Shown piece after piece: positions 5,346 to 18,400 of a DNA stretch of 64,000 nucleotides. Origin of the DNA: an uncultured Bacteroidota bacterium (lineage in GTDB: Bacteria > Bacteroidota > Bacteroidia > Bacteroidales > WCHB1-69); contig CACYHG010000025.1 of assembly GCA_902774175.1 (NCBI GenBank), positions 1,141 through 65,140 of the forward strand, read 5' to 3'. The notes under the pieces were generated by a model. The model made no database searches. It was not told the origin of the DNA and saw only the letters and a list, made by a program, of their open reading frames with translations. The translations under genes were made by a program, and so were the position numbers. The stretch's first letter is position 1; every line of letters starts with the position of its first letter.

Positions 5346-5351
5346 CATTCC

Positions 5352-5409
5352 AATCCTATTCAGGAACGTAGATGATTTCGCCGTTCTCCAGCTCGTATGC
5401 GGTGCCGAC
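5352..5409. repeat. Direct repeat copy 1: orphaned 3-prime end of the DUF2149 (hmuV-like) gene, left island boundary (attL-like)
   Basis: 55/58 identical to 19164-19221, with a 44-bp identical core at 5366-5409. On the minus strand it encodes VGTAYELENGEIIYVPE-stop, the same as the end of the ORF at 19168-19494. Confidence 0.85.
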
Positions 5410-5410
5410 A

Positions 5411-8400
5411 CTAACCAATTGCTTTTATCAAATCCAACATTGTTTGAAAGCTTTCAACTTCGTGGTAACGAACATTGGAAGTGGATAGGTTGTTGAACAG
5501 CTTCTTTGCACAGTCAATCTTGGCCTTTTCCACGCCTTTCAACTGCATGGAATCCATTGAACCTTTGGTTTCGGCGATGAAGAAAACATGCTTGATGCCA
5601 ATGTTGTCGTTGAAGGCAATAGCCCAGTCTGGGGCGTAGTTGCCTACGGGTGTCGGGATTTGGAACGACCTCGGCAGTTTGGCATAGACACACACTTCCT
5701 CCGCTTTGTCCAAATCTTCGGCAAAAATGCGCTCGCCTTGGCTATCGGGGAACACATAATCGAGGATGTGCTTTTTGGCTTCATATGCTTTGTCAACGGT
5801 TTGGCGGTTCTTCTCTTTGGTGAAGATGTCGGAATCGTATTGGTTTTCCGTACGATTGTAGCTGATGTGCTCCACAATCATCGTGGCTTTCTGCTCGCGG
5901 ATGATATGACTCACCTTGCGGATGAACTCTTCGGGGTTGTTCTTGAACATGTACAACTTCGACCGCTGAATGCCTTTCAGAATGCGGGTAACTGTACGGC
6001 GTGTCAGCGTGGCGGCTTTGGCTATATCGCCCACCAAGTCGTATGGCACATTGCTGGTTGACACATCACGCATCTCTTTTGTCCGTGTGCTCTGTTCGCC
6101 AGTGAAGTCCAGATTGTCATCGCCTTGGATACCTGTTGTGACCACATACTTCAGCTGCGTGACATTCAACTCGCTGTTGATGGCGGCAATAGCTTTCTGT
6201 ATCAGCTCCTCGCTGTCGTAATGCACCGTATAGACATAGCGGTGGTTGATTTCGTTCCACAATGCCTTGAATTCCATCTTCTCTGCATTGTCGTTCAAAC
6301 GCTCGTTCACCACTTCTGCCTTACCGTTGGCATCTTCCACCATATCCTCCAAAGCGGATGGATCAAAGATGCTCTGAATCAGTTTGTGCACTTGCTCTTC
6401 AATGGGTTGTAATTTCTTACTCATCGGAGCCAAAGTACCCTTTTCCATATCGGTGTGATAGCCTTGCAGGACATTGCCCTTCTCATCAATATAGTCGTTT
6501 TCATACAGGTAGGTGACGATGCTGGCGGCCTCCTGCTCTGAAATTGTGTGCTTCTCCTCACCCACTTTGACGGTAACCCCTTTGAAGTAGTCGACCGTGG
6601 CTTGTGTCGGACGTTCGCGCAAAGTCTCCTTAGTCTCTTTTTGCAAGGCATCAACAAAGGAGCTGTAGTTTTCGTTGGCGATGACGGTCAGCTTGTTAGT
6701 GTCGTGTACGGCATCGCCCAAGCGTTCTTTGTCCATACGGTTGCCGTCATTATCGACGCTGATGCGCAGACCACGACCCACCTCCTGACGTTTGGCCGTG
6801 CTTGAGTTGGCATGGCGCAAGGTACAGATTTGAAACACGTTTGGATTGTCCCAGCCTTCGCGTAAGGCGGAATGGGAAAAGATGAAACGTGTCGGCTCAT
6901 CGAAACTCAGCAGGCGTTCCTTGTTTTTCAAAATCAGGTCGTAAGCCGAGATGTCGTCGGAAGTGTCCTTGCCGCGTTTTACCTCACTATCAATTGAATG
7001 GCCTTTCTTGTCGATGGAGAAATAGCCGTTGTGCACCTGTGCAGCAGAAAAACGGCGCAGGTATTTCTGATAATCGTCCTCAAACAGAGTAAGGTTCTCG
7101 TTCAGATAGCGCATGTATTCCTCCTCAAACATCTTCCACAGCGGGCCTTGCACCTCGTTTCCATCCGTGTCATAGCTCTTGTAGTTGGCCACCTCATCGA
7201 TAAAGAACAGCGAAAGTGTCTTGATGCCTTGCTGGAACAATGCTCTCTCCTTCTCAAAATGCGACTTGATGGTTTCCCGAATCTGTATGAGTTGGATGGC
7301 TTTTTCACTAACATCGCCAACCACCTCTCCCTGACGCAGTTGCTTGCCGTTTTGGAAATAGACCGTATTAGTCAAAGGGTTGATTTCAGTAATAACAAAA
7401 TCCTTGTATGCAGGGAGTTGCGAAACGGAAAACAGTGAATCGCTTTGTTCAAATTTGCAGAGTTGGCGGCGAGTGGCGGCAGCACCTTTCACCTCAATTT
7501 CGAGTTTGACCACAGGGGCATGGTTCTTGGAAAGGATTACGCTGTCGAAATAGATGTAGCTCTGCGTGCCCAAAAGGTTCTGCACAGTGATGCCCTTCAC
7601 CTGGATTTTCTTCACCAAACGTTGCTTGTATGCATCATAAGCATCAAGCGCATAGATGCAGTTGTGAGAGGTCTTGTGCGTGGCGGAATAGTTCAGCACA
7701 AACAACGGCTTGAAGTTTTTCAAAGCTCTTTGCGTGGCTTCTCCCTCCATCTTCTGCGGCTCGTCCATAATGATAATGGGACGGTTGGCGGCAATCACGT
7801 CGATGGGGCGGCGGCTTTGGAAATCGTCGCGTTTGGAATAGATGATACGCGCTTCCTTGTTAGCCGCGCCTTCCTTGAACGAGGTGTTGAACGCCTGAAC
7901 GTTGATAATCATTACGTTGATGCTGGCATCGCTGCTGAACGAGTCGATTTGGGTAAGGTTGGCACTGTTGTAGATGAAATAGCGGGCTTTCTTGCCATAG
8001 AGTTCCATAAAATGCTCCTCTAACATGGTAAAGCTCTTATAGACTCCTTCGCGAATGGCGATGCTGGGCACAACAACGATGAACTTCGACCAGCCAAAGC
8101 GCTTGTTCATCTCAAACATAGTCTTGATATAGACGTAGGTCTTGCCCGTTCCCGTCTCCATCTCCACATCCAAAGAACAGGCACCTAGGCCGTTTGTAGC
8201 TGCTAAAGACTTGCTCAGTGGGATGTCGTTCTGAACCTGCTGATGGTTGATGTTCTCCAACAACTGACTGGCATTGAGTTCCACATCGGCATTGCGATAG
8301 CCCACAAATTCCTCCTCAAACTCAATCCTCATCTGCGGTTTTTGCTTTCCCAAGTCGCGACGGTACTGCGCGTTGGTCTTCGAGGGTTGACCCACAAACA

Positions 8401-8461
8401 CGTTCACCGTGCTTTCTACCGCATCGGTCTGGTATTGCTGTATCTTAAATTTAAATTTCAT
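5411..8461 (-). CDS. res: Type III restriction enzyme, Res subunit (SF2 helicase-nuclease)
   Basis: Walker A-like METGTGKTYVY. DEAH-variant IIMDEPQKM. Helicase motif VI SALREGWDNPNVFQICTL. C-terminal PD-(D/E)xK-like YAPDW...FIAETKG. 1016 aa, co-oriented with a Mod gene. Confidence 0.85.
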   Translation of the reverse strand: MKFKFKIQQYQTDAVESTVNVFVGQPSKTNAQYRRDLGKQKPQMRIEFEEEFVGYRNADVELNASQLLENINHQQVQNDIPLSKSLAATNGLGACSLDVEMETGTGKTYVYIKTMFEMNKRFGWSKFIVVVPSIAIREGVYKSFTMLEEHFMELYGKKARYFIYNSANLTQIDSFSSDASINVMIINVQAFNTSFKEGAANKEARIIYSKRDDFQSRRPIDVIAANRPIIIMDEPQKMEGEATQRALKNFKPLFVLNYSATHKTSHNCIYALDAYDAYKQRLVKKIQVKGITVQNLLGTQSYIYFDSVILSKNHAPVVKLEIEVKGAAATRRQLCKFEQSDSLFSVSQLPAYKDFVITEINPLTNTVYFQNGKQLRQGEVVGDVSEKAIQLIQIRETIKSHFEKERALFQQGIKTLSLFFIDEVANYKSYDTDGNEVQGPLWKMFEEEYMRYLNENLTLFEDDYQKYLRRFSAAQVHNGYFSIDKKGHSIDSEVKRGKDTSDDISAYDLILKNKERLLSFDEPTRFIFSHSALREGWDNPNVFQICTLRHANSSTAKRQEVGRGLRISVDNDGNRMDKERLGDAVHDTNKLTVIANENYSSFVDALQKETKETLRERPTQATVDYFKGVTVKVGEEKHTISEQEAASIVTYLYENDYIDEKGNVLQGYHTDMEKGTLAPMSKKLQPIEEQVHKLIQSIFDPSALEDMVEDANGKAEVVNERLNDNAEKMEFKALWNEINHRYVYTVHYDSEELIQKAIAAINSELNVTQLKYVVTTGIQGDDNLDFTGEQSTRTKEMRDVSTSNVPYDLVGDIAKAATLTRRTVTRILKGIQRSKLYMFKNNPEEFIRKVSHIIREQKATMIVEHISYNRTENQYDSDIFTKEKNRQTVDKAYEAKKHILDYVFPDSQGERIFAEDLDKAEEVCVYAKLPRSFQIPTPVGNYAPDWAIAFNDNIGIKHVFFIAETKGSMDSMQLKGVEKAKIDCAKKLFNNLSTSNVRYHEVESFQTMLDLIKAIG

Positions 8462-10019
8462 AAGACTTCATCAATTCTTTGCCCTTAACTGTCAAAGTGT
8501 ACTTCTGTTTTGAACTATTGGGATTATCCGTGATAGTAGGCTCAATAAAGCCGGCATCCAAAAGATGCCGCATGACATTGTTCTTAAATCTTCCACGATT
8601 AGTATCCCCTGTCAATTGCATCAGTGACCTTAATGATTGCGGTTCTTTTGTCAATCCTGCCATGACTTTGATGACACTTGCATAATATTCTCTCTCTAAC
8701 TTGTGACAGACTTGTGACAAGACTTGTGACAGACTTGTGACAGCTTGGGACAAACTGGGGACAGAACTTAGGACAGCTTGGGACAAATCCGTGTTTACGA
8801 CATCCTTTACGACAATCTTTATGACACTATTTGCAACATCTGTGACATTCACTCTGAATGCCGTTATGAGGTCTACAACAAACTCGGCAGGCGGGTTTCC
8901 GTTTTCCTTCAGGTCGGTTTGCACCTGGCCGACACCTCTGTTGAACATATTCACATAGCCCATCGTTTTCATGGCACTGGCTATAAGCGGATTGCGATAG
9001 TCATTGATTGTCGGAAAGTTTTCCGGCCGTGCGTTGCCATACAAGCCGCCGGCATTCGTAATTTCAAGGCGATGGGCAAACTCGTAGATTCGCAACGGCA
9101 TGTTGCTTTGCAAGTCGCGGTGCATACAGCCGTTCATTACCAGCTCGCGGATGGCCGTATAGGGGAAGTTGCTGACCATTTCCTCGCGCAACATGGAAAC
9201 AAACACTGGTTTCTTCTTGATGACGGACAGTTCCAGCAGCGACTCCAAGCGTGGCAGCAGTTCACAGTAATTGCCTTCCAGCTGAATCTCATTTTCCACT
9301 TCGCTGCTCACATCCTCACCTTTGAAACGCACATATTGCACATACAGGCCTGGCATAAAATGCCGTGGACGCTTCCCGAACAACACCATAGCGGCATTGG
9401 TGGGACAGTTGTTCTCAATGTCGTACATGCCAACGGCTGACAACTGGTCCTCAACGGGGCGTTTGTCCGCCGACAACAACTCCTTTCCGAACAGTTTCTC
9501 CAAAAATTTGCTATGCACAAGTTCGGTATCAATATCTGTAAGCTTGGCGGCGAGACAAGGCATCGTGTCAAATGTGGCCATGTAGGATGTGCGCTTTTCG
9601 GCCAACAGACGTTCCTCTGCTTCTGTGGCAATGTCACGACGTGGGCCGATGCGGATGAATGTGCGGCCACGATAGCGCACGGGCGGCAACATGGAGGGTG
9701 TCACCTCCGCCACCAGCACTTCGCCTTCGGGGAACACAAACCGATCCACGCTCATCACGGGAACAGGCAGTATGTTGCCGTCTGAACGGATAGCCGCTAT
9801 CTTCTTCAGCAAAGCATCCGTAACCTTTAATCCCGATAAGGTGCCGTTGTCGTATGCTCCTAATATCAGATAGCCGTTCTTCCTTGAGTTGGGCAGATCG
9901 TTTGAAAACGCACAGATGGCCTCCTGAAACTTATCCATGTCATTTGTTGACGTAGTGCGTTCCACCCTATAAGTCTCAGTGCTATGCAGCAGTTCCTGTA
10001 TTTCTTCTTTCGTTATCAT
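8451..10019 (-). CDS. AlbA_2/Schlafen-like divergent-AAA + HATPase_c_4-like + C-terminal wHTH protein (often mis-annotated as RecG-like helicase or transcriptional regulator)
   Basis: N-terminus ETYRVERTTS...NGYLILGAYDNG matches the AlbA_2 pattern. Central ELVMNGCMHRD...LEITNAGGLYG is HATPase_c_4-like. It also has LSQ/xQV short repeats and a C-terminal tail (FKNNVMRHLLDAGFIEPT...QKYTLTVKG). Its 3-prime end overlaps the res ATG by 11 nt. Confidence 0.7.
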   Translation of the reverse strand: MITKEEIQELLHSTETYRVERTTSTNDMDKFQEAICAFSNDLPNSRKNGYLILGAYDNGTLSGLKVTDALLKKIAAIRSDGNILPVPVMSVDRFVFPEGEVLVAEVTPSMLPPVRYRGRTFIRIGPRRDIATEAEERLLAEKRTSYMATFDTMPCLAAKLTDIDTELVHSKFLEKLFGKELLSADKRPVEDQLSAVGMYDIENNCPTNAAMVLFGKRPRHFMPGLYVQYVRFKGEDVSSEVENEIQLEGNYCELLPRLESLLELSVIKKKPVFVSMLREEMVSNFPYTAIRELVMNGCMHRDLQSNMPLRIYEFAHRLEITNAGGLYGNARPENFPTINDYRNPLIASAMKTMGYVNMFNRGVGQVQTDLKENGNPPAEFVVDLITAFRVNVTDVANSVIKIVVKDVVNTDLSQAVLSSVPSLSQAVTSLSQVLSQVCHKLEREYYASVIKVMAGLTKEPQSLRSLMQLTGDTNRGRFKNNVMRHLLDAGFIEPTITDNPNSSKQKYTLTVKGKELMKSYEI

Positions 10020-10038
10020 CTATTTCTAATTATAACTG

Positions 10039-10046
10039 CAAAAATA
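10039..10046 (-). promoter_or_regulatory. Bacteroidetes -7 promoter box (TATTTTTG on minus strand) for the AlbA_2 cassette and probably res
   Basis: Plus-strand CAAAAATA, 20 nt upstream of the ATG at 10019. Matches the TAnnTTTG consensus. Confidence 0.45.
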
Positions 10047-10066
10047 GTTCATTTTGTCTAATCAAA

Positions 10067-10119
10067 GTGCTTTCCACCGCATCGGTCTGGTATTGCTGTA
10101 TTTTGAATTTGAATTTCAT
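10067..10119 (-). pseudogene. Relic of a res 5-prime end (first ~17 codons, MKFKFKIQQYQTDAVES)
   Basis: 49/53 identical to the true res start at 8409-8461, and all 4 mismatches are synonymous third positions. The relic ATG at 10119 lies 2 nt after the stop of the PHP-ATPase gene. The frame closes after 26 codons. Confidence 0.85.
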
Positions 10120-10121
10120 TG

Positions 10122-13121
10122 CTATTGGATATATTTATCATCTCTTTTCCTAAATGCAGGCATTGCTCCCTCTAACACATCTACAATATGCTTATTTGTA
10201 TTTGGATTCTCTATACTGCCAGATTCAACATACACTTTATTACCATCTTTTTTATCTATGCAAACATAGATTATCTGTTCTGCATCTGCCACGACAGCCA
10301 AATTGGGGTTATGTGTGACCATAATTATCTGTCTTTTTTTCTTGGCTTCCTTTATAAAATCAACAAGAATATTGGCCACGCTATCATTGTCCAAGTTGTC
10401 TTCTGGTTGGTCCAAAATAAGTGGAATGTTATCCATATCCAGCAACAAATAAAAGACTAAAAGTAACGCTCCTTTTTCCCCTGGTGATAAAACAGAAAGA
10501 TCTTTATCACCCTGAAGAATTGAATAATTATTGGTCAAATAATCTAGTGAAAACAAGTAGTCGTATAACGATTGCCTATCCTCGACTTGATCTTTAACAT
10601 AAAATGGTCTTTCGTCATCCGTCTTTAGTTTGTTTATAAAAGAATTGCAAAACGCTTCAATTCCATCTTCGTTTTGAATATCACTTTCTTTTATCAATTC
10701 CTGTACCATTGTTAGACCTGTATCTTTTCCTCTAAAGGATCCACTTTTCGACTGATTTACAAATCTTAAAAACTCATCTGGAAAAGTATTCCTTATGCCT
10801 AAAGATGCACCTATTTTTATTTCATAATCCTTCAACAGCGATTTGTTTTCTTCTATTTTAGAGTCCAATTTGCTTTTAACTTGTTGATAAATGGAAATTA
10901 TCTCTTTACGTTTATTATAGATTTCCTTTAAGCATAGATTTCTTTCTTCCGCCTTCTTCTGTAAATCCTCAGATAAAGAATTTTCAACGTATTCCTTCTC
11001 TTTTTTCAACCATTTTAGAGTGTTAGGAGTTGCTTCGTCACCCTCAATTCTTCTTTTGTTTTTTTCGTACTCCTCTTTTTGTTGTAAAAATGATTGATAT
11101 ACCTTACTTGGTCCATCTAGTTTTGCTTGAAGTGAGATTATTTCGTCTTGTTTTTTCTTAATAGCAAAAACCAAATTATCTTCATTTTGTGAATCAGCAA
11201 CAATCAATTTCTCAATTTCACGCAACCTGCCTTCAAACTCCAATTGCTTTTTTTCCAATAAAGAAGTGTCCTTTTTGCCGCTTATTATAGTATTAATATC
11301 ACCTCCCAAACTCTCAACAAACGACTTGTTTTCCTCTTTAAACTCTCTGATGCTTTGAGCAATTCGATTAACCTTTATAATTAAATCATTGATTTTTGAC
11401 AATTGAATTAATAGACCACTCTTTTCATCTGTAAGCTTTTGAATTGAATCATTTAAAGCGACAATCTCTTCTTTAAGCTTTTCAATTTTTAAAACTGTTT
11501 CTTTACTTTGTTCATCATCAGGACTGGGTTTTGGAACTTCTTGAGGAACAATTAGGGCAGCAATTTCTTTTTCTTTTTGCTCGATTGAGGCATCAATGCT
11601 ATTTTTATAAGATGGGTAGTCTTTATCTTCAAGAGCAATTATATCTTTGTTGATAAGCGACAGTTTGCTCTTGAGCTGTTGAATGTCAAGTTCTAATGCA
11701 TCTGATTTTTTTGCAATGAGTTCTTTGAAATTAGCAGTTCCTAAGCGAGAAGACTCATCTATATATTGGAAAACCACAGCTTCTATTTCATCTTTAAGAT
11801 TTTCTTCTTTTTGTAGGTCATTACAAATAGATTCGAAATAGCCTTGCGGCAAATACTTTATTCGTGTGATTTCACTACCATCAAGTTTGTCCGATAATCC
11901 TTTCTTTTCACTTTGTTTATCTTCATATTTTACAGATGCATAAAAGTTACTAGCAAGATTCTTATTCCTAAATTTATCATCATTTAAAAAAGAAAAATAC
12001 TTTTGGTCTTTATAATTGCAACAATGAGCAAGTATATCTGAAATCGCACTTTTCCCATTACCTTTGTTGCCAATAATAGCGACTAACTCTTTGTTAAATG
12101 GTATCTGTATATTCTCAAACCATTTTCCTTTAATTCCAGAATAGCCATCTACAGCATCAATTAAAAGTTCCTTAATGTATTTTGTTCTATTAGCATCAAC
12201 CGTTTTAAAAATCTTTGGTTTTTCGCCTATAAAGACACGATTTTCTGGCTCGATCAATATTTGTTTCAGGCCTTCAAAAGTAGGATCTGCTTTAATCCAA
12301 GTTATTTTATTATTTGGGAAAATGTTTACCGCATCTAATGAATGAGCATCACTACCAATAACACAAGGTTTTAAACTTCCGTATTTTTGTTTTATCGTCT
12401 CTTCATCATCTACTCCTTCTCCTAAAAAATACTGGATATCTTTGTCATTAGCTGAGAATATAATATCGGACATCCTATATATCTCCTGTCGTGTTGCAGC
12501 TAATGAAGAATGTTGAATTCCGCTATTACCGTCTCTATTACTATTGGAAACTGCCGTGACAACATAATTACGAAGACTTGGCTTTTTTAATACTTCATAT
12601 AGTTCATTATGGCTAATATTGAATTGGGCGATACCTTCTTTTTTTGCACAGCCTTCTTCCAAGTGGTCATTATTTCTAAATAATCTTCCTAGTGCAATTA
12701 AATCTTGTTTTAAACAGGAGTACTCATTTCCTGCATATTTGAATTTTAGACACTGAAAGAATTCTCTATTTATTGTCTCAATTGGCAAGTTTGGATTAAA
12801 AAAAACATGAATATTAATTGGTGTGTCTGTTCTTGTTACAGGCAAGATTCTTAATTCTACATTTGGGATTAGTGTTTTGTTAGATAACCGTCCCTCTTCT
12901 TGTTTTTTCTTCAAAAACAGGTAGTTGTCAATTGAAAAATAATCCGTAATGCCTAATACTGAGATTTCTTCATTAGACTCTAATTTACTAATGTATTTCT
13001 CCCATATATCACCACCACTACCAAACTGGTCGTTTTTTGCTGTATCTGGCGTATGCACATGCAAATCCCATTTACGCCATTCCGAACCTCTTGGATATTT
13101 ATTTGTTGCCATAATTGTCAA
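10122..13121 (-). CDS. PHP-domain phosphoesterase fused to an SMC/ABC-type coiled-coil ATPase (Ppl / TrlF-family-like defence ATPase)
   Basis: PHP motifs WDLHVHTP, GITDY, NVELR, NIHVFF, GSDAH. Walker A GNKGNGKS. A coiled-coil region of roughly 450 aa. Signature-like LSPGEKG and Walker B/D-loop PLILDQPEDNLD. The track start at 13121 is TTG; the first ATG is at 13112. The family name comes from memory of the architecture, not from a search. Confidence 0.75.
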   Translation of the reverse strand: MTIMATNKYPRGSEWRKWDLHVHTPDTAKNDQFGSGGDIWEKYISKLESNEEISVLGITDYFSIDNYLFLKKKQEEGRLSNKTLIPNVELRILPVTRTDTPINIHVFFNPNLPIETINREFFQCLKFKYAGNEYSCLKQDLIALGRLFRNNDHLEEGCAKKEGIAQFNISHNELYEVLKKPSLRNYVVTAVSNSNRDGNSGIQHSSLAATRQEIYRMSDIIFSANDKDIQYFLGEGVDDEETIKQKYGSLKPCVIGSDAHSLDAVNIFPNNKITWIKADPTFEGLKQILIEPENRVFIGEKPKIFKTVDANRTKYIKELLIDAVDGYSGIKGKWFENIQIPFNKELVAIIGNKGNGKSAISDILAHCCNYKDQKYFSFLNDDKFRNKNLASNFYASVKYEDKQSEKKGLSDKLDGSEITRIKYLPQGYFESICNDLQKEENLKDEIEAVVFQYIDESSRLGTANFKELIAKKSDALELDIQQLKSKLSLINKDIIALEDKDYPSYKNSIDASIEQKEKEIAALIVPQEVPKPSPDDEQSKETVLKIEKLKEEIVALNDSIQKLTDEKSGLLIQLSKINDLIIKVNRIAQSIREFKEENKSFVESLGGDINTIISGKKDTSLLEKKQLEFEGRLREIEKLIVADSQNEDNLVFAIKKKQDEIISLQAKLDGPSKVYQSFLQQKEEYEKNKRRIEGDEATPNTLKWLKKEKEYVENSLSEDLQKKAEERNLCLKEIYNKRKEIISIYQQVKSKLDSKIEENKSLLKDYEIKIGASLGIRNTFPDEFLRFVNQSKSGSFRGKDTGLTMVQELIKESDIQNEDGIEAFCNSFINKLKTDDERPFYVKDQVEDRQSLYDYLFSLDYLTNNYSILQGDKDLSVLSPGEKGALLLVFYLLLDMDNIPLILDQPEDNLDNDSVANILVDFIKEAKKKRQIIMVTHNPNLAVVADAEQIIYVCIDKKDGNKVYVESGSIENPNTNKHIVDVLEGAMPAFRKRDDKYIQ

Positions 13122-13124
13122 TGT

Positions 13125-15014
13125 TTAAATGATTCTTCTTATCGTCTCTTTCGAATACTCCTCCCAAATCTGCTCAAAGTTGTCCGCCACATTGTCCGTG
13201 GCGAGGCTGCTGTCGCGGAGGACGAAGTAGTAGGGATGCTGGCGGGCGATTTCGGTGATGGCGGTCTCGTTCACGTCCTTATCGAAGCAGGCCATGAGGT
13301 AGTTATCGGCGACGCTCCAGACGGTCTTGCCCGCGATTTCGCGTTTCTCTATCTTGGCCGATAGCTCGATGCCAAGCTCTATCATGGCTTGGAAGAGCAG
13401 GTCCTCGTCGGTGCGGTCGTGCTTGATGTTGTCCTCGAAGAGCAGGTTCTCGTTGAACTGCTCGGGAGAGTAATAGACATCCTGCATGTTGGAGCTGTCG
13501 AGTTTCAGCACGCGGAAACCGATGTCCAAGGGCTTTTTCTCGCCGCTGAACAAATCGGTTTGTTTGGCTTTCTGCTCTTCAACGATTTTCTTTCCCGCGC
13601 GGCGGATGCGTTCCTTGCCGATTTCGCAGATAGTAGAAAATCCTTGGTCTTTCTTTTTCTCGCTGACTTGTTCGGGAAGCTGAACAAGAATAAACTTCAA
13701 ACCTGTTCCTTTTTCGGCATTCCGTTTCATCACGGCATGTGCTGTGGTTGCACTCCCAGAAAAGAAATCAAGGACAATAGAATCATCATACAGGTTTGCA
13801 AGTGTTAGCAACCTTTCCAATAATCGAACTGGTTTCGGCCCATCAAAAACTCCTTTGTCACCAAACAATGACACAACTTCTTGCGCTCCTTCCTGACTAT
13901 GGCCAACTTCTTTGAACAACAAAATAGATGTCGGTGCCATTCCTTCGAATTTCAATTCTGTTAAGAAACGCTTTATTCTGGGTGTGCCATCCCCATTTGG
14001 ACCGAACCAAATTCGGTTGTCCTGGAGTCTCTCTAAAAACGAGTTTTTAGAGAGACTCCAGCAGCGCCCTGCTGGAGGCTCTACTATTTTTCCAGATGGA
14101 GTTGTTATAGGATAATCGCACTCCGCATTGTATGTTTTAACGGAAATATCACTAGACATCCATACTCCACGAGGATCATTGTCTGGATTAGAATACCGAG
14201 CGTTAGCTTCTTCCGTCCTATCAAGTCTTCCAATCACGAACTTGTCTATGTTCTTAACGAACATCATAATATAATCATGACTGTTAGAAATAAATCTCGC
14301 ATCATTTTTCGGAGAAAAAGCGCGTTGCCAAATCAATTCCGCGATAAAGTTCCGCGCACCAAACACCTCGTCACAGACTTTTTTCAGGTTCTCTTGTTCA
14401 TTATCATCAATCGAAATAAAAATCACCCCATCCTCACTCAGCAAGTCCTTGGCCACTTTCAGGCGCGGATAAATCATATTGAGCCAGTCGGTGTGGAAGC
14501 GGCCGTTGCTTTCGGTGTTGGCCACGAGGCGGTTGCCCTCCTCGTCCTCCTGCCCGCTGTTGTGGACATAGTCGCCGGCGGTCTGGGCAAAGTCGTCGTT
14601 ATACACGAAGTCGTTGCCTGTGTTGTAGGGCGGGTCAATGTAAATCATCTTCACCTTGCCGAGGTAGTTCTCGCGCAGCAGCTTCAGCACTTCGAGGTTG
14701 TCGCCCTCGATGTAGAGGTTCTGCGTGTTATCGAAGTCCACGCTTTCCTCGCGGCAGGGGCGCAGCGTGTCGGTGGTCGGCGCGTTGGCATGGCGGATGG
14801 CGTTGCGCTTGTCGGGCCAGGTGAACTGGTAGCGTTCCTCGGGGCCTTCCACGATGTCCTTCGAGAGCTCCTGCCGCAGCTGGTCGAAGTCGATGGCCAT
14901 TTCCGGCTTCCCGTTCTCGTCGAGCCGCTCGGTGAGGCAGTTGGGGAAGAGTTCGGCTATGCGCTTTATGTTTTCGTCCACGATGTTGTGGGTTTGCATG
15001 CGAAGTTTTTCCAT
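13125..15014 (-). CDS. mod: Type III restriction-modification DNA methyltransferase, Mod subunit (beta-class N6A/N4C)
   Basis: Motif IV IYIDPPYNTGN precedes motif I DFFSGSATTAHA, which is the beta-class order with the TRD between them. 629 aa, in the same operon as res. Confidence 0.85.
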   Translation of the reverse strand: MEKLRMQTHNIVDENIKRIAELFPNCLTERLDENGKPEMAIDFDQLRQELSKDIVEGPEERYQFTWPDKRNAIRHANAPTTDTLRPCREESVDFDNTQNLYIEGDNLEVLKLLRENYLGKVKMIYIDPPYNTGNDFVYNDDFAQTAGDYVHNSGQEDEEGNRLVANTESNGRFHTDWLNMIYPRLKVAKDLLSEDGVIFISIDDNEQENLKKVCDEVFGARNFIAELIWQRAFSPKNDARFISNSHDYIMMFVKNIDKFVIGRLDRTEEANARYSNPDNDPRGVWMSSDISVKTYNAECDYPITTPSGKIVEPPAGRCWSLSKNSFLERLQDNRIWFGPNGDGTPRIKRFLTELKFEGMAPTSILLFKEVGHSQEGAQEVVSLFGDKGVFDGPKPVRLLERLLTLANLYDDSIVLDFFSGSATTAHAVMKRNAEKGTGLKFILVQLPEQVSEKKKDQGFSTICEIGKERIRRAGKKIVEEQKAKQTDLFSGEKKPLDIGFRVLKLDSSNMQDVYYSPEQFNENLLFEDNIKHDRTDEDLLFQAMIELGIELSAKIEKREIAGKTVWSVADNYLMACFDKDVNETAITEIARQHPYYFVLRDSSLATDNVADNFEQIWEEYSKETIRRII

Positions 15015-15074
15015 ATTATTTTGCTTTTTATTTACTAATAGCGTAGAATGAATACATACCCATTCTAACTACAA

Positions 15075-15683
15075 TCATTTTTTCTTTTGTTGATTTTGAA
15101 TTTGAATCAGCTTTTCCGTATTGTTCTTGATTTCTAAAGCATTCTTTTCTATCGCATTTGAGTTTTTTTCAATGGAAGGCTTGATATTTTCATCAATTGT
15201 CGTTTGTATTTTTATTATTTCCTTCTGGTTATTATTAGATTTCTGATAAGGCAACACAAAGTATCCAACAATAGCAATTATTGTTGCTATCACGATACCA
15301 ATTATCCACCTTTTATTCTCTTTTTTTTCTTTGTTTTGTTGTTCAATATCTGTTTTAACCTTTTCAATCTTCCCTTCCAATTCTTTCCTCAAACTATCAT
15401 GTGCAGCATCATTTTTTTCAGACAAAGAACTAATTTTATCTTCTAAGCGAAAATATGTATCCCCTATTTGATTAGTAACAGCATTATACTCTGTTTCTTG
15501 GGAACAACTGCTATCTACAGGAGGATAATACCTATTTTTATGTTCCTCATCCGCCCTTGTTTGATAATGATTTGAACTACGGAATCGATTAAGCTTAGAG
15601 AAACTGTGTTTCAAATCATAATCCTCTTGATTTGGAATAATCGGAGGATGTTTTAATGGCTGTTTTTTCTTTTTTCCTCCCAT
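15075..15683 (-). CDS. Hypothetical single-pass membrane protein with flanking coiled coils
   Basis: 202 aa. It has a Lys-rich N-terminus, a coiled coil (LRKELEGKIEKVKTDIEQQNKEKK), a TM helix (WIIGIVIATIIAIVGYFVLPY) and a C-terminal coiled coil. It starts 2 nt after the upstream gene stop and is strongly AT-rich. Confidence 0.6.
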   Translation of the reverse strand: MGGKKKKQPLKHPPIIPNQEDYDLKHSFSKLNRFRSSNHYQTRADEEHKNRYYPPVDSSCSQETEYNAVTNQIGDTYFRLEDKISSLSEKNDAAHDSLRKELEGKIEKVKTDIEQQNKEKKENKRWIIGIVIATIIAIVGYFVLPYQKSNNNQKEIIKIQTTIDENIKPSIEKNSNAIEKNALEIKNNTEKLIQIQNQQKKK

Positions 15684-15685
15684 AA

Positions 15686-16393
15686 TTACAAATCTTTTAG
15701 ATTCTCAAACAATTGCTTTTCAACAGATAATGATAAGATATAGGTGTCTTTGATTAGTGACTTATCGTTAATTGGTTCCTTCTCATTTGTCAAATAATTA
15801 TCTGTATCTATTGCTACTCCAACATGCTTAATTCGATATGGTTCAGCAAAGTTCTGCGCTGTAAATGCATCTTTATCGTATTTAACCGGCCCCACGCTAT
15901 ACATTCCATTCTTATAATTTAATTGAAATAGCAAATCTGTCGCTGGAAAATCCTGAAGATAAAACTGACTTGGGAATCCCTTTTTCATCTTATCAAGGAT
16001 AGTATCAAACTCTGTTGATTTCGTTTTATAAGTTCCTTGGATTCGACATCCAATTCGACGAATGTTGAAACTACACAATTCACGCTCAACACAATCGTAG
16101 ATTTTTAAAAAATTACTGTAAAAACAATCTACTGAATCAATTTTACTACTTATATAACACAACCTGTTTAGTTCTATCATCACAATATCTCTTGCATTCT
16201 CCTTATTTTCTCCATCCCAAATTATAGCATTAGCGACCCCTATTTCCCAATGAAGCGGTACAAAAATTTTTGACGCTTTAATGTTTTCAATAATTGCGCC
16301 TTTTTTGTCAGAGAGTGTCACTTTATGGTCAAATCGCAATTCTATAATAAACTTTCGATTACAAATACTTTTAGAGTCAATATTGTCTTTCAT
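15686..16393 (-). CDS. Hypothetical protein (weak, memory-based resemblance to the TIGR04255 family)
   Basis: 235 aa, no TM segment or signal peptide. FIIELRFD and IRRIGCRIQGTY are reminiscent of the conserved TIGR04255 blocks. AT-rich and tightly coupled to the downstream TM protein. Confidence 0.55.
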   Translation of the reverse strand: MKDNIDSKSICNRKFIIELRFDHKVTLSDKKGAIIENIKASKIFVPLHWEIGVANAIIWDGENKENARDIVMIELNRLCYISSKIDSVDCFYSNFLKIYDCVERELCSFNIRRIGCRIQGTYKTKSTEFDTILDKMKKGFPSQFYLQDFPATDLLFQLNYKNGMYSVGPVKYDKDAFTAQNFAEPYRIKHVGVAIDTDNYLTNEKEPINDKSLIKDTYILSLSVEKQLFENLKDL

Positions 16394-16507: not shown

Positions 16508-16511
16508 ATAA

Positions 16512-17102
16512 CTATTCATTCAAATTATTATTCAACACATCAATTACCTTATTCACATTAGTATAGGATTCACCATCACCTCCAAAAGCCTCTGCCCTTG
16601 CACAGGCTTCCTCCTGTCGGCCTTCATCCACCATTTCATCCACCCATTTCTCCTGCTGCAAAAATTTCTCAGTCTTATCGTATTGAGGAATGAACTCCTT
16701 TAAGTCCTCAATCAAGGCATGTGACGTGCCAAAGTAGCGGTTTGTGTTCTTATAATGTAACAAAAACCAGTATTCTATCGAAGGCAATGAGTCGCAAAGC
16801 ATCACAGAAGGATGATCCTTGTACTTACGTCGCAAAACATTCAACTTTCTGCGCTCCGATTCATTCCATGTTGACACATCGGCATCAAACACACAAATGG
16901 CAAAGCCATCATTCCGAAGCACTTCCTCAATCCTTTTCGCCATGCCATTGGCCGTTTCCGTTCCAAAAAAGCGCGGACGTATCTTTACACGGTAATCCTT
17001 TAGCGATTTCAAATGCTTGAAATACCACTGCTCAGTAATGCCCGCTCCAATAACAGTCGGAATTGGCACTCTACCTTTTCGAATGGATACCTTTCTTGCC
17101 AT
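16512..17102 (-). CDS. RloB-like (Toprim-like) protein
   Basis: 196 aa. GITEQWYF corresponds to the TE..YF block, and the acidic VFDADVS block fits the RloB family. It starts 5 nt after the ATPase stop. Confidence 0.6.
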   Translation of the reverse strand: MARKVSIRKGRVPIPTVIGAGITEQWYFKHLKSLKDYRVKIRPRFFGTETANGMAKRIEEVLRNDGFAICVFDADVSTWNESERRKLNVLRRKYKDHPSVMLCDSLPSIEYWFLLHYKNTNRYFGTSHALIEDLKEFIPQYDKTEKFLQQEKWVDEMVDEGRQEEACARAEAFGGDGESYTNVNKVIDVLNNNLNE

Positions 17103-17107: not shown

Positions 17108-18400
17108 CTACTTTTTGATGTTAGGCAAAGCACCAAAAACACCGTTCCTATATGCTTTCTGGAGCGATGATATTCTATACAATCTCTTGTATTCCACCAG
17201 TGAATATAGGTCGGTGTTTCCTGTTTCATCTTTTTCAGTGAACCAAACAGAATCTTTACGGATAAGATCATCTCCAACGGTGTTTAACAAAGGATCGTAA
17301 TGGGTTGTGACCAACAACTGGGCCCTGTTGCGTTGCGACAAAAACTGCTCAATAACAAATTCAACCAAATCAGGATGCAGGGAGGCTTCAATTTCGTCAA
17401 TAAAAAGAAAAGCATTCTTACTGACCGCCTCAAAAATCGCCGCTTCAATACCTATAGTACGTTTCGTTCCATACGACTGGTATTCATCAGGCATAAGATA
17501 GCTTTCATCTCCACGGCTATTATGAACCCTATGGACAAAAGAAGCCTTCACTTGATTAAAAGATTTCTCTTTTTTTAACATCTCTTTTATCTCAGCAGGA
17601 GCATCTTCGTCTTGCAACATCATATTAAGCACCCTTTGAGGTATAGGTTGCTTTACCATATCAGTTTTGACATCGGATATATTGAAATCGGCCTTCTGGA
17701 CAAAATCAAGCAAATACTCCTTGAGAATTTTATTCTCAAGCATTTTTTCACTTGCATATTCAAACATTCTCGTTTGCGGCTGCACCATTGGCAAAATACC
17801 ATTGCGTAACCACTCCCTGGCTGCATCAATCTCCTTCATAGCAACATTCACCTGCTTGCGCGCGGCAAAAAAAGACATATTGGGAAGGCATCTCAATGAA
17901 AGCTCGTCTTTCGCAGCCTGACTGATTTTGACAACAACGGGATTAAAGCTCAATACAGACTCACCGCCATCCCATGTGCGCTCAAACAACTTTGTGGGTT
18001 GGACAGTAGAATAGTAGTATAATCTCTCCAAATGCACCTTTTGCCGATCAAGTTTCAACTCATACCAATACTTGGTTTTACCAACATAAAATTTCAGGCT
18101 GAATTCTGTTGGCTCATTCGGTGTCAACGTGTCTAGCAGGAAAGGTTCCGAACCGGTTTCCTCTTCGATGTCATCCGGTTTATTGAACACAAACTCATGA
18201 AGAAACGTCAAAGCCAAAAGTAAATTTGACTTGCCCGAAGCATTTGCACCATACACCATGGCAAAACGGAGCAACCGAACACCAGGTACCACTTCAACAA
18301 CATAATTTTCCTCAAATGTCTTGTCCTTTGTCGCTTCAAAACTGAGTGTCACCTCTTCTCTGAACGACATAAAGTTTTTAATTTTAAACTCTTGTATCAT
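17108..18400 (-). CDS. ABC-type AAA ATPase (AAA_21-like), partner of the RloB-like protein
   Basis: N-terminus FKIKNFMSF. Walker A GANASGKSN. Walker B/D-loop FLFIDEIEASLHPD. H-loop LLVTTHY. 430 aa. Confidence 0.75.
   Translation of the reverse strand: MIQEFKIKNFMSFREEVTLSFEATKDKTFEENYVVEVVPGVRLLRFAMVYGANASGKSNLLLALTFLHEFVFNKPDDIEEETGSEPFLLDTLTPNEPTEFSLKFYVGKTKYWYELKLDRQKVHLERLYYYSTVQPTKLFERTWDGGESVLSFNPVVVKISQAAKDELSLRCLPNMSFFAARKQVNVAMKEIDAAREWLRNGILPMVQPQTRMFEYASEKMLENKILKEYLLDFVQKADFNISDVKTDMVKQPIPQRVLNMMLQDEDAPAEIKEMLKKEKSFNQVKASFVHRVHNSRGDESYLMPDEYQSYGTKRTIGIEAAIFEAVSKNAFLFIDEIEASLHPDLVEFVIEQFLSQRNRAQLLVTTHYDPLLNTVGDDLIRKDSVWFTEKDETGNTDLYSLVEYKRLYRISSLQKAYRNGVFGALPNIKK

What the first reader, a model, noticed from the sequence alone, without database searches (positions are those of the whole stretch)
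5411..15014. Type III R-M operon with a PHP-nuclease/SMC-like ATPase gene wedged between mod and res
The minus-strand order is mod (13125-15014), PHP-SMC-like ATPase (10122-13121), then res (5411-8461). The mod stop and the ATPase start are 3-12 nt apart. The ATPase stop lies 2 nt from the relic res ATG at 10119. So before the later AlbA_2 insertion the three genes formed one tightly coupled mod-ATPase-res unit. Classical Type III systems have two genes. The 999-aa insert combines a complete PHP metal-phosphoesterase motif set with an ABC/SMC ATPase head split by a coiled coil of roughly 450 aa. That makes it a Rad50/SbcC-like scaffold with its own putative nuclease. I recall this architecture as the single-gene defence system Ppl (Gao et al. 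2020) and as the NCBI TrlF family. Its translationally coupled position inside an R-M operon suggests one of two things: a three-component restriction machine, or a second defence layer sharing expression with the R-M system. The gene is visibly far more AT-rich than mod or res, so it was probably acquired separately.
Basis: partly seen in the sequence, partly recalled or inferred. Interest (0 to 1): 0.7.

Follow-up and report, generated by a model that had tools for sequence, protein, structure and literature searches.

The report
Defence cargo nested inside restriction operon
A Bacteroidales Type III restriction-modification operon carries two extra defence-type genes between its methylase and nuclease genes, and near-identical operons in related genomes hold different defence genes at that spot, so the site is a swappable cargo slot rather than part of a three-subunit restriction enzyme.

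Summary
The gene order, spacings, low G+C and relic res start are all real. The 996-aa gene is a clear TrlF-family protein (NCBIfam 701 bits, cut-off 350). It has an N-terminal PHP phosphoesterase fold and an SMC/Rad50-like ABC ATPase head split by a coiled coil. It is not Ppl (91 bits, cut-off 1000).

The "three-component restriction machine" reading is not supported. Res proteins 94-96 % identical to this one occur in more than 100 Bacteroidales protein clusters. In all nine backbones examined (the window and eight sampled loci) the mod-res gap holds cargo, in eight different gene sets: TrlF alone, TrlF plus an AlbA_2 gene, complete Septu, SIR2-HerA, an AbiJ-like gene and unknowns. DNA homology stops exactly at the mod stop and the res ATG.

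Family-wide, TrlF sits in Type I, III and IIG R-M loci, but alone on conjugative plasmids.

The "later AlbA_2 insertion" has the TrlG architecture (Schlafen/AlbA_2 + GHKL ATPase + wHTH). It belongs to a cassette bounded by res-5' direct repeats, which also occurs behind SIR2-HerA.

TrlF is itself mosaic: its PHP core was swapped between lineages.

Best reading: independent second-layer defences embedded in a Type III operon. This extends the known "embedded defence" phenomenon.

The parts
17108..18400 (-). AAA_21 ABC ATPase, AbiLi/RloA-like. First gene of the conserved island backbone.
   Evidence: Pfam AAA_21 1.6e-35. PADLOC AbiLi 267 bits. 76 % nt identity to L172/L176.
16512..17102 (-). RloB/AbiLii-like partner of the ATPase.
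   Evidence: Pfam RloB 1.4e-19. PADLOC AbiLii.
15075..16393 (-). Variable slot 1, between RloB and mod. Two low-G+C ORFs (235 aa and 202 aa) without family matches. The 202-aa product has one predicted membrane helix flanked by coiled-coil-like sequence.
   Evidence: No significant Pfam, PADLOC or NCBIfam hits. 29-34 % G+C. No nt homology to relatives, which carry a TIR gene (PDC-S66), a 93-119-aa ORF or nothing at this position. Translations.
13125..15014 (-). Type III mod (N6_N4 methyltransferase, DPPY at residue 127). The target-recognition region at about 13632-14340 is variable between relatives.
   Evidence: PADLOC MTase_III 780 bits, residues 1-627 on profile 2-620/621. Pfam N6_N4_Mtase. 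nt homology to relatives covers 15030-14340 and 13631-13125 only. DPPY.
10122..13112 (-). TrlF-family gene (996 aa from ATG 13112). PHP domain = aa 1-310 (12183-13112). ABC head N-lobe with Walker A GNKGNGKS = aa 331-460 (11733-12122). Coiled coil = aa 461-760 (10833-11732). ABC head C-lobe with LSPGE, DQPE and H-loop = aa 761-996 (10125-10832).
   Evidence: NCBIfam TrlF_fam_ATP 701 bits, cut-off 350. AF2 model pLDDT 86. Foldseek matches to SMC/Rad50/MukB/JetC/LmuB heads. Motifs.
12303..13037 (-). PHP core (aa 26-270): a module exchanged between TrlF lineages.
   Evidence: 17-29 % identity to L171/L003/L004/P0004, whose remaining 726 residues are 80-96 % identical. 69/61/60 % identity to P0013/P0030/P0033, whose remainder is 59/46/44 % identical. 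nt homology to L003/L004/L171 is missing for 12303-13047.
10067..10119 (-). Relic res 5' end, the left repeat of the trlG cassette.
   Evidence: 100 % identical over 53 nt to the consensus res 5' end. Encodes the 18 N-terminal Res residues, then diverges to a stop. Aligns to the real res start of L171.
8451..10019 (-). TrlG-like gene: Schlafen/AlbA_2 (aa 15-128) + HATPase_c_4 (GHKL-type, aa 309-390) + C-terminal winged helix (aa 449-510). Its stop overlaps the res start by 11 nt.
   Evidence: Pfam. Same domain order as Photorhabdus TrlG (PMC7554251). 77-79 % nt identity to the res-proximal gene of L003 and L189.
8404..8461 (-). Functional res 5' end, the right repeat of the cassette.
   Evidence: Direct repeat D1, 90 % identical to 10062-10119. 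Carries synonymous differences from the consensus that the relic does not carry.
5411..8461 (-). Type III res: helicase (GTGKT at 104, DEPQ at 233) plus a C-terminal PD-(D/E)xK endonuclease.
   Evidence: PADLOC REase_III 971 bits, residues 1-1013 on profile 1-987/989. Pfam ResIII + RE_endonuc. More than 120 protein clusters at 94-96 % identity. Motifs.

Best explanation
Window 5411-18400 is a Bacteroidales defence island built on a conserved backbone: an AbiL-like ATPase, RloB, Type III mod and Type III res. The mod-res junction of this R-M family is a hypervariable cargo slot.

In this window the slot holds two separately acquired, co-oriented genes.

1. TrlF is a single-polypeptide, Rad50/SbcC-like ABC ATPase. 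A coiled coil of about 300 residues splits its head, and a PHP metal-dependent phosphoesterase replaces the Mre11/SbcD nuclease.
2. The TrlG-like gene encodes Schlafen/AlbA_2 + GHKL ATPase + wHTH. It arrived later as a cassette bounded by direct repeats of the res 5' end.

Shown here:
- the domain identities;
- the ancestral mod-TrlF-res state;
- cargo replacement between conserved flanks;
- solo occurrence of TrlF elsewhere.

Inferred:
- The cargo genes are transcribed with the R-M operon, given the 12-nt and 2-nt gaps and the 11-nt overlap.
- They act as autonomous second-layer defences, not as R-M subunits.
- TrlF dimerises through its ATPase heads on DNA, and its PHP site degrades nucleic acid. 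The precedents are the Ppl architecture and the nuclease activities of known PHP domains.
- The TrlG-like protein is a Schlafen-type RNA/tRNA nuclease or regulator that causes growth arrest.
- Cassettes are exchanged by homologous, or homology-facilitated illegitimate, recombination. The anchors are the highly conserved mod 3' end and res 5' end.
For: Identity.
- NCBIfam TrlF 701 bits against a cut-off of 350, matched end to end.
- The whole-protein model hits SMC, Mre11-Rad50, MukB, JetC, LmuB, RecN and AriA.
- The N-terminal model hits only PHP proteins in its top 19: RNase AM and Pol III alpha PHP.
- Catalytic and ATPase residues are conserved in 155 homologues.

Cargo slot.
- The window's Res has more than 120 protein clusters at 94-96 % identity.
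- Nine backbones examined (window plus eight sampled loci) carry eight different cargo sets between mod and res: TrlF+AlbA_2 (window, L001), TrlF alone (L171), AbiJ-like+AlbA_2+391 aa (L169), complete Septu with PtuA 459 bits and PtuB 220 bits (L172-175), a 650-aa unknown (L176-178), AlbA_2+483 aa (L179-181), 290 aa+AlbA_2 (L182), and SIR2+HerA+TrlG-like (L189).
- blastn homology to the window ends at the mod stop (13125) and restarts at the res ATG (8461). Cargo is 33-43 % G+C against about 50 % for res.

Autonomy of TrlF.
- It stands alone on 5 of 5 conjugative plasmids inspected.
- In 67 species-representative genomes with enough flank, 30 have a recognised R-M gene within 4 genes and 11 have one on both sides. 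These are of Types I, III, IIG and IV.
- On an NJ tree only the window's clade is uniformly mod-TrlF-...-res.

Order of events.
- L171, L088, L089 and L186 have mod-TrlF-res with nothing between TrlF and res.
- The window's relic equals the real res 5' end of L171.
- The segment relic + trlG + res 5' aligns continuously (77 %, 1850 nt) with L189, where it lies behind SIR2-HerA.

Literature.
- Ppl is a single PHP+ATPase gene with anti-phage activity and no known mechanism (PMC11482910).
- Defence genes embedded in other defence operons are documented (bioRxiv 10.1101/2024.01.29.577857; PMC11411939).
- TrlG is needed for growth arrest in Photorhabdus (PMC7554251).
- Prokaryotic Schlafens cleave tRNA (PMC13462974).
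Against: - There are no functional data for any TrlF protein. In Photorhabdus no phenotype was assigned to trlF (PMC7554251).
- Every sampled operon of this R-M family has some cargo. A plain two-gene version was not seen, so a general dependence of the operon on having cargo cannot be excluded.
- TrlF's recurrent placement inside R-M operons of several types, with very tight gene spacing, could reflect a functional link to restriction rather than mere co-expression.
- Promoter and terminator scans were uninformative for this organism, so co-transcription is inferred from spacing only.
- The Walker-B catalytic Glu position is Gln in 97 % of homologues (DQPE). The ATPase cycle may therefore differ from that of Rad50.
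Confidence: 0.7

Rival explanations
1. R-M guardian, PrrC-like. TrlF binds the Type III (or Type I) complex, is held latent, and is switched on when a phage anti-restriction protein disables the enzyme. It then degrades nucleic acid and aborts the infection.
For: - TrlF recurs inside R-M operons of several types: hsdS-TrlF-hsdR, mod-TrlF-res, and Eco57I/MmeI-linked loci.
- Translational-coupling-like spacing.
- Precedents among ABC-ATPase defences that guard R-M or sense anti-restriction: PrrC, RloC and PARIS (PMC12707154; bioRxiv 10.1101/2024.01.29.577857).
Against: - TrlF stands alone on plasmids and in more than half of genomes, with no recognised R-M neighbour.
- One lineage moves between Type I and Type III scaffolds, whose subunits are unrelated.
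- The same R-M backbone hosts autonomous systems such as Septu and SIR2-HerA in the same slot.
Confidence: 0.13
2. TrlF and the TrlG-like protein form one two-component module, a TRL system embedded in the R-M operon. One is the sensor or regulator and the other is the effector.
For: - Photorhabdus trlR-trlF-trlG is an operon outside any R-M context (PMC7554251).
- A long-form AlbA_2+HATPase_c_4 gene lies directly after TrlF in the window, L001, L003, L012, L042, L047, L099 and L100, in both Type I and Type III scaffolds.
- The pair was assembled in two steps in this lineage, which could indicate selection for the combination.
Against: - Only 5 of 105 TrlF loci with adequate flanks have AlbA_2 at position +1.
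- The same relic+trlG cassette sits behind SIR2-HerA without TrlF in L189.
- AlbA_2-type genes are cargo in L169, L179 and L182 without TrlF.
- Close TrlG-like relatives (more than 120 clusters at 65-94 %) far outnumber close TrlF relatives.
- No trlR-like small HTH gene lies upstream of TrlF here.
Confidence: 0.12
3. Three-subunit restriction enzyme. TrlF is an obligatory third subunit that supplies a second nuclease or DNA-end processing to Mod2Res complexes.
For: - Tight mod-TrlF-res arrangement, conserved in one clade down to about 50 % TrlF identity.
Against: - Mod and Res are complete by themselves. Res keeps its own PD-(D/E)xK endonuclease.
- Res proteins 94-96 % identical work from operons without TrlF.
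- The TrlF PHP core is swapped while Res stays constant.
Confidence: 0.03
4. Non-defence role. TrlF/TrlG act in DNA repair or stress (temperature)-induced growth control, and are only hitch-hiking in the island.
For: - The only published phenotype of the locus is temperature restriction of growth (PMC7554251).
- The SbcCD-like architecture.
Against: - Neighbours are overwhelmingly defence genes.
- The slot alternates with validated anti-phage systems.
- Plasmid carriage.
- The mosaic, fast-diverging PHP core is typical of arms-race genes.
Confidence: 0.04

Closest known systems
TrlF of the Photorhabdus laumondii Temperature Restricting Locus (trlR-trlF-trlG; NCBIfam NF045780)
   Same: Family membership by a curated HMM (701 bits against 350). 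A large protein formerly annotated as 'histidinol phosphatase', with an ATPase. Followed by an AlbA_2 + HATPase_c_4 gene with the same domain order as TrlG.
   Different: Here it is embedded between Type III mod and res, not between polA and dsbA. There is no trlR. The TrlG-like gene was added in a separate event and is res-linked. TrlF function is unknown in both cases.
Ppl (Gao et al. 2020 single-gene anti-phage system; NCBIfam NF042955, PADLOC PDLC02208)
   Same: Same overall idea: one polypeptide with a PHP domain and an ABC-type ATPase. Weak HMM similarity, mainly in the C-terminal ATPase lobe.
   Different: Fails the family threshold by a wide margin (91.5 bits against 1000). It is a distinct, much larger sister family: 1,912 representative clusters (one per 50 %-identity cluster) at E<=1e-30.
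PrrC within the EcoprrI Type Ic R-M locus (and RloC)
   Same: An ABC-ATPase-containing defence gene wedged inside an R-M operon and co-expressed with it.
   Different: PrrC/RloC carry an anticodon-nuclease domain, and PrrC is almost exclusively found embedded. TrlF carries a PHP domain and is often solo. The host here is a Type III system.
'Embedded' defences in Hma, BREX, DISARM and Type I R-M (Payne et al. 2024 preprint); TgvAB in the V. cholerae Type I R-M
   Same: Diverse autonomous defence cassettes nested between the genes of a multi-gene defence system. Septu is a frequent guest in both.
   Different: Those surveys did not cover Type III systems. Here there is one specific junction (mod stop / res ATG) with res-5' repeat scars, in a very highly conserved Bacteroidales R-M backbone.
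SbcCD / Mre11-Rad50
   Same: ABC ATPase head split by an antiparallel coiled coil, working with a metal-dependent phosphoesterase nuclease.
   Different: The nuclease is a PHP fold fused in cis rather than a separate calcineurin-like Mre11/SbcD. There is no CxxC zinc hook. The coiled coil is much shorter. Walker B is DQPE.

Membership tests
TrlF family AAA-like ATPase (NCBIfam NF045780) | Score above the curated cut-off over the full model | tested here: met
   701.2 bits against a cut-off of 350. Residues 11-997 of the 999-aa TTG ORF (10122-13121) on profile 1-943/944.
TrlF family AAA-like ATPase (NCBIfam NF045780) | N-terminal PHP phosphoesterase domain with metal-binding residues | tested here: met
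   Foldseek top 19 hits are all PHP proteins, E 1e-6 to 1e-3. H18/H20/D57/E86/D255/H257 are conserved in 92-98 % of 155 homologues and H102 in 79 %. Pfam PHP hits 5 of 21 relatives but not this sequence.
TrlF family AAA-like ATPase (NCBIfam NF045780) | ABC/SMC-type ATPase head with Walker A, Q-loop, signature, Walker B and H-loop, split by a coiled coil | tested here: met
   GNKGNGKS 348-355, Q423, LSPGE 875-879, DQPE 901-904, H934. Helices 462-755. SMC/Rad50 structural matches.
Ppl anti-phage protein (NCBIfam NF042955) | Score above the curated cut-off | tested here: not met
   91.5 bits against a cut-off of 1000. The best stretch covers only residues 870-993. PADLOC Ppl 73 bits.
Ppl anti-phage protein (NCBIfam NF042955) | Confers phage resistance as a single gene | not testable with these tools
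   Needs plaque assays.
Type III restriction-modification system | Mod: beta-class N6_N4 methyltransferase with DPPY before the target-recognition region | tested here: met
   PADLOC MTase_III 780 bits, matched end to end. Pfam N6_N4_Mtase. DPPY at residue 127.
Type III restriction-modification system | Res: SF2 helicase motifs plus a C-terminal PD-(D/E)xK endonuclease | tested here: met
   PADLOC REase_III 971 bits, matched end to end. ResIII + RE_endonuc. GTGKT at 104, DEPQ at 233, PD...ETK at 944-966.
Type III restriction-modification system | Two adjacent genes, mod immediately followed by res | tested here: not met
   4.66 kb of cargo separates them. All nine backbones examined (the window and eight sampled loci) also have cargo.
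TRL operon (trlR-trlF-trlG, Photorhabdus) | Small HTH regulator gene trlR upstream of trlF | tested here: not met
   mod ends 12 nt upstream of TrlF. No small ORF lies between them.
TRL operon (trlR-trlF-trlG, Photorhabdus) | trlG: AlbA_2 followed by HATPase_c_4, directly downstream of trlF | tested here: met
   AlbA_2 at 15-128 and HATPase_c_4 at 309-390, compared with 14-128 and downstream in TrlG.
PrrC-type R-M guardian | Gene embedded in an R-M operon | tested here: met
PrrC-type R-M guardian | Latency through binding to the R-M complex, and activation by an anti-restriction factor | not testable with these tools
   Comparative data argue against it: solo copies, and several R-M types as hosts.
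SMC/Rad50 proper | Zinc hook (CxxC) or hinge at the coiled-coil apex | tested here: not met
   No CxxC anywhere in the protein. No residue between 448 and 863 is conserved at >=90 %.

The most novel reading that the evidence does not exclude
The mod-res junction of a very widespread Bacteroidales Type III R-M family works as an integrase-free cassette-exchange site for defence genes. The nearly invariant first 50-60 nt of res (together with the mod 3' end) serve as the recombination anchor, leaving res-5' direct-repeat scars. The guests themselves (TrlF) swap their nuclease module between lineages. The R-M operon would then be a 'defence docking station' comparable in logic to an integron. TrlF would be an untested, very large anti-phage family with a PHP nuclease driven by an SMC-like ATPase.
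Probability: 0.35. Interest if true: 0.7.

Novelty: new variant of a known kind. Interest (0 to 1): 0.5.

Why it matters
- It extends "guilt by embedding" to Type III R-M systems. It also points to a single, precisely bounded slot in gut and rumen Bacteroidales that samples many defence systems. That slot is a ready-made list of candidate defences: TrlF, the TrlG-like Schlafen-GHKL protein, and the 650-aa, 483-aa, 391-aa and 290-aa unknowns.
- It gives TrlF, a family of about 1,900 representative clusters (one per 50 %-identity cluster) with no known function, a testable role as a Ppl-like nuclease-ATPase. It also flags the PHP core as the fast-evolving, exchangeable part.
- It removes the more exotic idea of a three-subunit Type III enzyme.

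Tried and rejected
- Sigma-70 promoter and terminator scan: counts equal the shuffled expectation, and the host is probably Bacteroidota with other promoter rules, so it says nothing about the operon.
- tRNA genes in the whole window: none.
- Rfam over 4800-19500: none.
- PDB sequence-profile search: only ABC/SMC head matches and no PHP by sequence. The PHP call therefore rests on the fold search and on Pfam hits in relatives.
- Fetching Yersinia ruckeri pYR3, to compare a published TrlF-TrlG pair: the accession is not in the collection.
- TrlG-like protein against plasmids: only 22-28 % identity hits, useless for pairing statistics.
- TrlF against phage genomes: no full-length homologue.
- PADLOC scan of 147 immediate neighbours: the listing was saturated by redundant Type I specificity models, so it only confirmed about 10 HsdS neighbours.
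- Considered and rejected: that the window contains an Hma or SNF2-DUF4391 system. The flanks are cobN, exbB-like, DUF2149 and ccsB.
- Considered and rejected: that the relic is a chance ORF. It is 100 % identical over 53 nt to the consensus res start and recurs in four other loci.

Full report
**1. What is in the window**

Six to eight co-oriented minus-strand ORFs fill 5411-18400. Their products are as follows.

- 17108-18400: an AAA_21 ATPase (PADLOC AbiLi, 267 bits).
- 16512-17102: an RloB/AbiLii-like protein.
- 15686-16393 and 15075-15683: two ORFs with no family match.
- 13125-15014: Type III Mod (PADLOC MTase_III 780 bits, matched end to end).
- 10122-13121: a 999-aa ORF.
- 8451-10019: a 522-aa protein with AlbA_2, HATPase_c_4 and Fic-like_C domains.
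- 5411-8461: Type III Res (REase_III 971 bits, matched end to end; ResIII plus RE_endonuc).

The flanks are housekeeping genes: ccsB/resB, a di-haem peroxidase and imelysin on one side, and DUF2149, an ExbB-like gene and cobN on the other. None of them hits PADLOC.

- The mod stop is followed after 3 nt by a TTG and after 12 nt by an ATG. The ATG is the likely start, because the NCBIfam model begins at residue 11 of the TTG ORF.
- The stop of the large ORF is followed after 2 nt by ATGAAATTCAAATTC...

That downstream reading frame encodes MKFKFKIQQYQTDAVEST, the exact first 18 residues of Res. It then diverges and stops. The two res-5' copies form a 58-nt direct repeat with 90 % identity.

G+C is 31-34 % in the large ORF, against 42-58 % in mod, 47-51 % in res and 43-53 % in the AlbA_2 gene.

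**2. The large protein**

It is an unambiguous TrlF-family member: NF045780 scores 701 bits against a cut-off of 350, over the full length. It is not Ppl: NF042955 scores 91.5 bits against a cut-off of 1000, and PADLOC Ppl scores 73 bits.

An AlphaFold2 model built on a 20-sequence alignment has pLDDT 86 and pTM 0.68. Its best PDB matches are heads with coiled coils: an Smc head, Mre11-Rad50, MukB, JetC, LmuB, RecN and AriA.

A separate model of residues 1-310 (pLDDT 87, pTM 0.87) matches only PHP-fold proteins in its first 19 hits. These are RNase AM at E 1.2e-6 and the PHP domain of Pol III alpha.

Pfam PHP does not hit the window protein itself. It does hit 5 of 21 relatives, best E 1.6e-14.

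Conservation in 155 homologues:

| Feature | Residues and conservation |
|---|---|
| PHP ligands | H18 92 %, H20 94 %, D57 95 %, E86 98 %, H102 79 %, D255 98 %, H257 94 % |
| Canonical motif-II His | Tyr in 80 %, His in 18 % |
| Walker A | K354 100 % |
| Q-loop | Q423 |
| Signature | LSPGE |
| Walker B | D901-Q902-P-E904 |
| H-loop | H934 |

So the PHP set is largely, but not fully, canonical. The position of the catalytic Glu is a conserved Gln.

The coiled-coil insert spans helices 462-755. There is no CxxC hook.

The family is large. 1,912 clusters (one representative per 50 %-identity cluster) match at E<=1e-30 and 5,444 at E<=1e-10. RefSeq already names its members "TrlF family AAA-like ATPase".

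**3. Where the name comes from**

TrlF is the middle gene of the Photorhabdus laumondii Temperature Restricting Locus, trlR-trlF-trlG. TrlG has AlbA_2 at residues 14-128 followed by HATPase_c_4. Point mutations in trlG relieve growth arrest at 36 °C, and no phenotype was assigned to trlF (PMC7554251).

The window's 522-aa protein has the same domain order.

**4. Relatives of TrlF and their contexts**

Every close relative with enough flanking sequence lies directly after a Type III mod and before res:

| Locus | TrlF identity | Between TrlF and res |
|---|---|---|
| L001 | 94 % | a 599-aa AlbA_2+HATPase_c_4 gene |
| L003 | 72 % | two AlbA_2 genes |
| L004-6 | 68 % | a YhcG gene |
| L087 | 67 % | only the first 52 codons of a trlG-like gene |
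| L088 | 52 % | nothing (about 70 nt) |
| L089 | 51 % | nothing (about 70 nt) |
| L171 | - | nothing (stop abuts the res ATG) |
| L186 | 62 % | nothing |

Sources. On a neighbour-joining tree these loci form one clade.

Outside that clade I examined 80 species-representative genomes and 79 metagenome loci. I clustered the neighbouring proteins and labelled the clusters with Pfam.

- Of 67 genome loci with at least 2 genes on each side, 30 have a recognised R-M gene within 4 genes, 18 have one immediately adjacent, and 11 have them on both sides.
- The corresponding numbers for 38 metagenome loci are 18, 16 and 9.

The commonest pattern is hsdM-hsdS-TrlF-(AlbA_2, RhuM or GmrSD)-hsdR. Others are mod-res-x-TrlF, TrlF-mod-x-res, and Eco57I- or MmeI-type IIG enzymes upstream.

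On five conjugative plasmids TrlF stands alone.

TrlF is therefore a mobile single gene with a strong but non-exclusive tendency to sit inside R-M operons of any type.

**5. The R-M backbone and its slot**

Res has more than 120 distinct protein clusters at 94-96 % identity, named Bacteroidales where a name exists. Only three clusters of TrlF reach 94 %.

I sampled seven further Res alleles, plus one found through the TrlG-like protein. The content of the mod-res interval in each was:

| Locus | Content of the mod-res interval |
|---|---|
| L169 | AbiJ-like (Abi_C) + AlbA_2 (347 aa) + 391 aa |
| L171 | TrlF alone |
| L172-175 | complete Septu (PtuA 459 bits, PtuB 220 bits, both matched end to end) |
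| L176-178 | a 650-aa unknown |
| L179-181 | AlbA_2 (346 aa) + 483 aa |
| L182 | 290 aa + AlbA_2 (344 aa) |
| L189 | SIR2 + HerA + TrlG-like (78 % identical to the window's) |

Sources. None of them is a plain two-gene operon.

blastn of the window island against these loci gives:
- 87-93 % identity over the mod 5' part (15030-14340);
- no homology over the target-recognition region;
- 82-93 % over the mod 3' part, ending at the stop codon (13125);
- nothing across the cargo;
- 87-89 % from the res ATG (8461) to the end of res.

Cargo is 33-43 % G+C in every locus, against about 50 % for res.

A second, smaller variable slot lies between RloB and mod. It holds two unknown low-G+C ORFs here, a TIR protein (PADLOC PDC-S66) in L172 and L189, and small ORFs or nothing elsewhere.

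**6. The relic and the order of events**

The first 50-60 nt of res are almost invariant at the DNA level. Second copies occur in several loci:

| Locus | Position of the second copy |
|---|---|
| window | 10119-10067 |
| L001 | 4463-4522 |
| L003 | 13025-13077 |
| L179-181 | 5465-5497 |
| L189 | about 7713 |

The second copy always lies directly upstream of the AlbA_2/HATPase_c_4-type gene that abuts res.

The window's relic is 100 % identical to the consensus. The functional copy at 8461 carries four synonymous differences, as expected if it arrived with the cassette from another allele.

The window segment from relic through trlG to the res 5' end aligns continuously with L189 (77 % over 1850 nt). 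In L189 it lies behind SIR2-HerA rather than TrlF. L087 keeps TrlF, the relic and a 5' stump of trlG.

From this I conclude three things.
- mod-TrlF-res came first in this lineage.
- A [res-5' repeat + trlG] cassette was added later by recombination in the res 5' end.
- That cassette is linked to res, not to TrlF.

In L176 and L179 the first cargo ORF begins with ATGAAATTCA, the first ten bases of res. This is a shorter scar of the same kind.

The recombination mechanism itself is inferred, not shown. The candidates are double crossover, or homology-facilitated illegitimate recombination using the conserved flanks.

**7. TrlF is mosaic**

| Compared with | Identity, residues 26-270 | Identity, residues 271-996 |
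|---|---|---|
| L171, L003, L004, P0004 | 17-29 % | 80-96 % |
| P0013 | 69 % | 59 % |
| P0030 | 61 % | 46 % |
| P0033 | 60 % | 44 % |

Sources. P0013 lies in another mod-TrlF-res operon. P0030 lies in a Marinifilum hsdS-TrlF-AbiE-hsdR operon.

Many family members also match the query only from about residue 240 onward.

The catalytic residues are kept in both versions. The PHP core is therefore an exchangeable, rapidly diverging module. That fits a part of the protein that meets phage-encoded partners or inhibitors.

**8. Interpretation**

The comparative data favour embedded, autonomous second-layer defences that share the R-M operon's expression and mobility. They speak against a three-subunit enzyme.

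A PrrC-like guardian role remains possible but is less likely, given the solo copies and the range of host R-M types.

A dedicated TrlF-TrlG partnership is weakened by L189 and by the large excess of TrlG-like genes without TrlF. The recurrent adjacency in Type I and Type III scaffolds keeps it alive.

The mechanism proposed for TrlF is ATP-driven head engagement on DNA, with hydrolysis by the PHP site. This rests on structural analogy (SbcCD/Mre11-Rad50; PHP exonucleases such as RNase AM and Pol III alpha PHP) and on Ppl, whose mechanism is itself unknown (PMC11482910).

For the TrlG-like protein the leads are:
- the growth-arrest phenotype in Photorhabdus (PMC7554251);
- tRNA cleavage by prokaryotic Schlafens (PMC13462974);
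- Schlafen-GHKL fusions in SLFN-pAgo defence (bioRxiv 10.64898/2026.05.29.728809), whose N-terminal region is what PADLOC's pAgo model matches here.

**9. Novelty**

Already known:
- the TrlF family and Ppl;
- defence genes embedded in other defence operons. Examples are PrrC (PMC12707154), TgvAB (PMC11411939), and the Hma, BREX, DISARM and Type I survey (bioRxiv 10.1101/2024.01.29.577857).

Not found in the papers searched:
- Type III operons as hosts;
- a single precisely bounded slot in a highly conserved Bacteroidales R-M backbone;
- the res-5' repeat scars;
- PHP-module swapping in TrlF.

I rate this a new variant of a known kind, of moderate interest.

Noticed in passing
window 15075-16393 (minus strand): Two low-G+C ORFs (235 aa and 202 aa) lie between RloB and mod, with no Pfam, PADLOC or NCBIfam match. 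The 202-aa product has one hydrophobic helix flanked by Lys/Glu-rich coiled-coil-like sequence. The same position holds a TIR protein (PADLOC PDC-S66) in L172 and L189, so this is a second variable cargo slot and the pair is a candidate defence module.
   Followed up: partly
window 12303-13037 (TrlF aa 26-270): The PHP core is only 17-29 % identical to that of TrlFs whose other 726 residues are 80-96 % identical. It is 60-69 % identical to that of more distant TrlFs. The nuclease module has been swapped between lineages.
   Followed up: yes
window 10401-10412 (TrlF aa 901-904): Walker B reads D-Q-P-E. The residue that is normally the catalytic Glu of ABC ATPases is Gln in 97 % of 155 homologues, with a conserved Glu three positions later. 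This may mean slow or switch-like ATP hydrolysis.
   Followed up: no
window 8699-8786 (inside the TrlG-like gene): An imperfect tandem repeat (11-nt unit about 8 times; 33-nt unit 2.7 times) encodes LSQ(A)V repeats in the linker before the C-terminal winged helix. L189 has a similar repeat. Changes in copy number of the 11-nt unit would shift the frame.
   Followed up: no
L004-L006, about 14110-17223 (L004 coordinates): In the loci with YhcG cargo, res is split into 129-aa and 902-aa ORFs. It is possibly inactivated or phase-variable.
   Followed up: no
L171, L172, L182, L186 (upstream of mod); partial in L003 and L179 (DUF4391 only): An SNF2 helicase (about 1080 aa) plus a DUF4391 gene precede the AbiL-like pair and mod in L171, L172, L182 and L186. 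Only DUF4391 was seen in L003 and L179. Both genes are absent from the window. The Type III pair may be part of a larger conserved island or composite system in Bacteroidales.
   Followed up: no
window 14022-14061 (inside the mod variable region): A perfect 19-nt inverted repeat with a 2-nt spacer (CTGGAGTCTCTCTAAAAAC / GTTTTTAGAGAGACTCCAG) lies within the target-recognition part of mod.
   Followed up: no
window 20744-24629 (minus strand): cobN appears split into two overlapping ORFs. One is 1123 aa and covers profile positions 2-862 of 1090. The other is 265 aa and covers 1005-1090. This could be a frameshift, a sequencing error or a pseudogene.
   Followed up: no
L176 5052 and L179 4418: The first cargo ORFs start with ATGAAATTCA, the first ten bases of res. 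This is a short scar, suggesting that these insertions also occurred inside the res start.
   Followed up: partly
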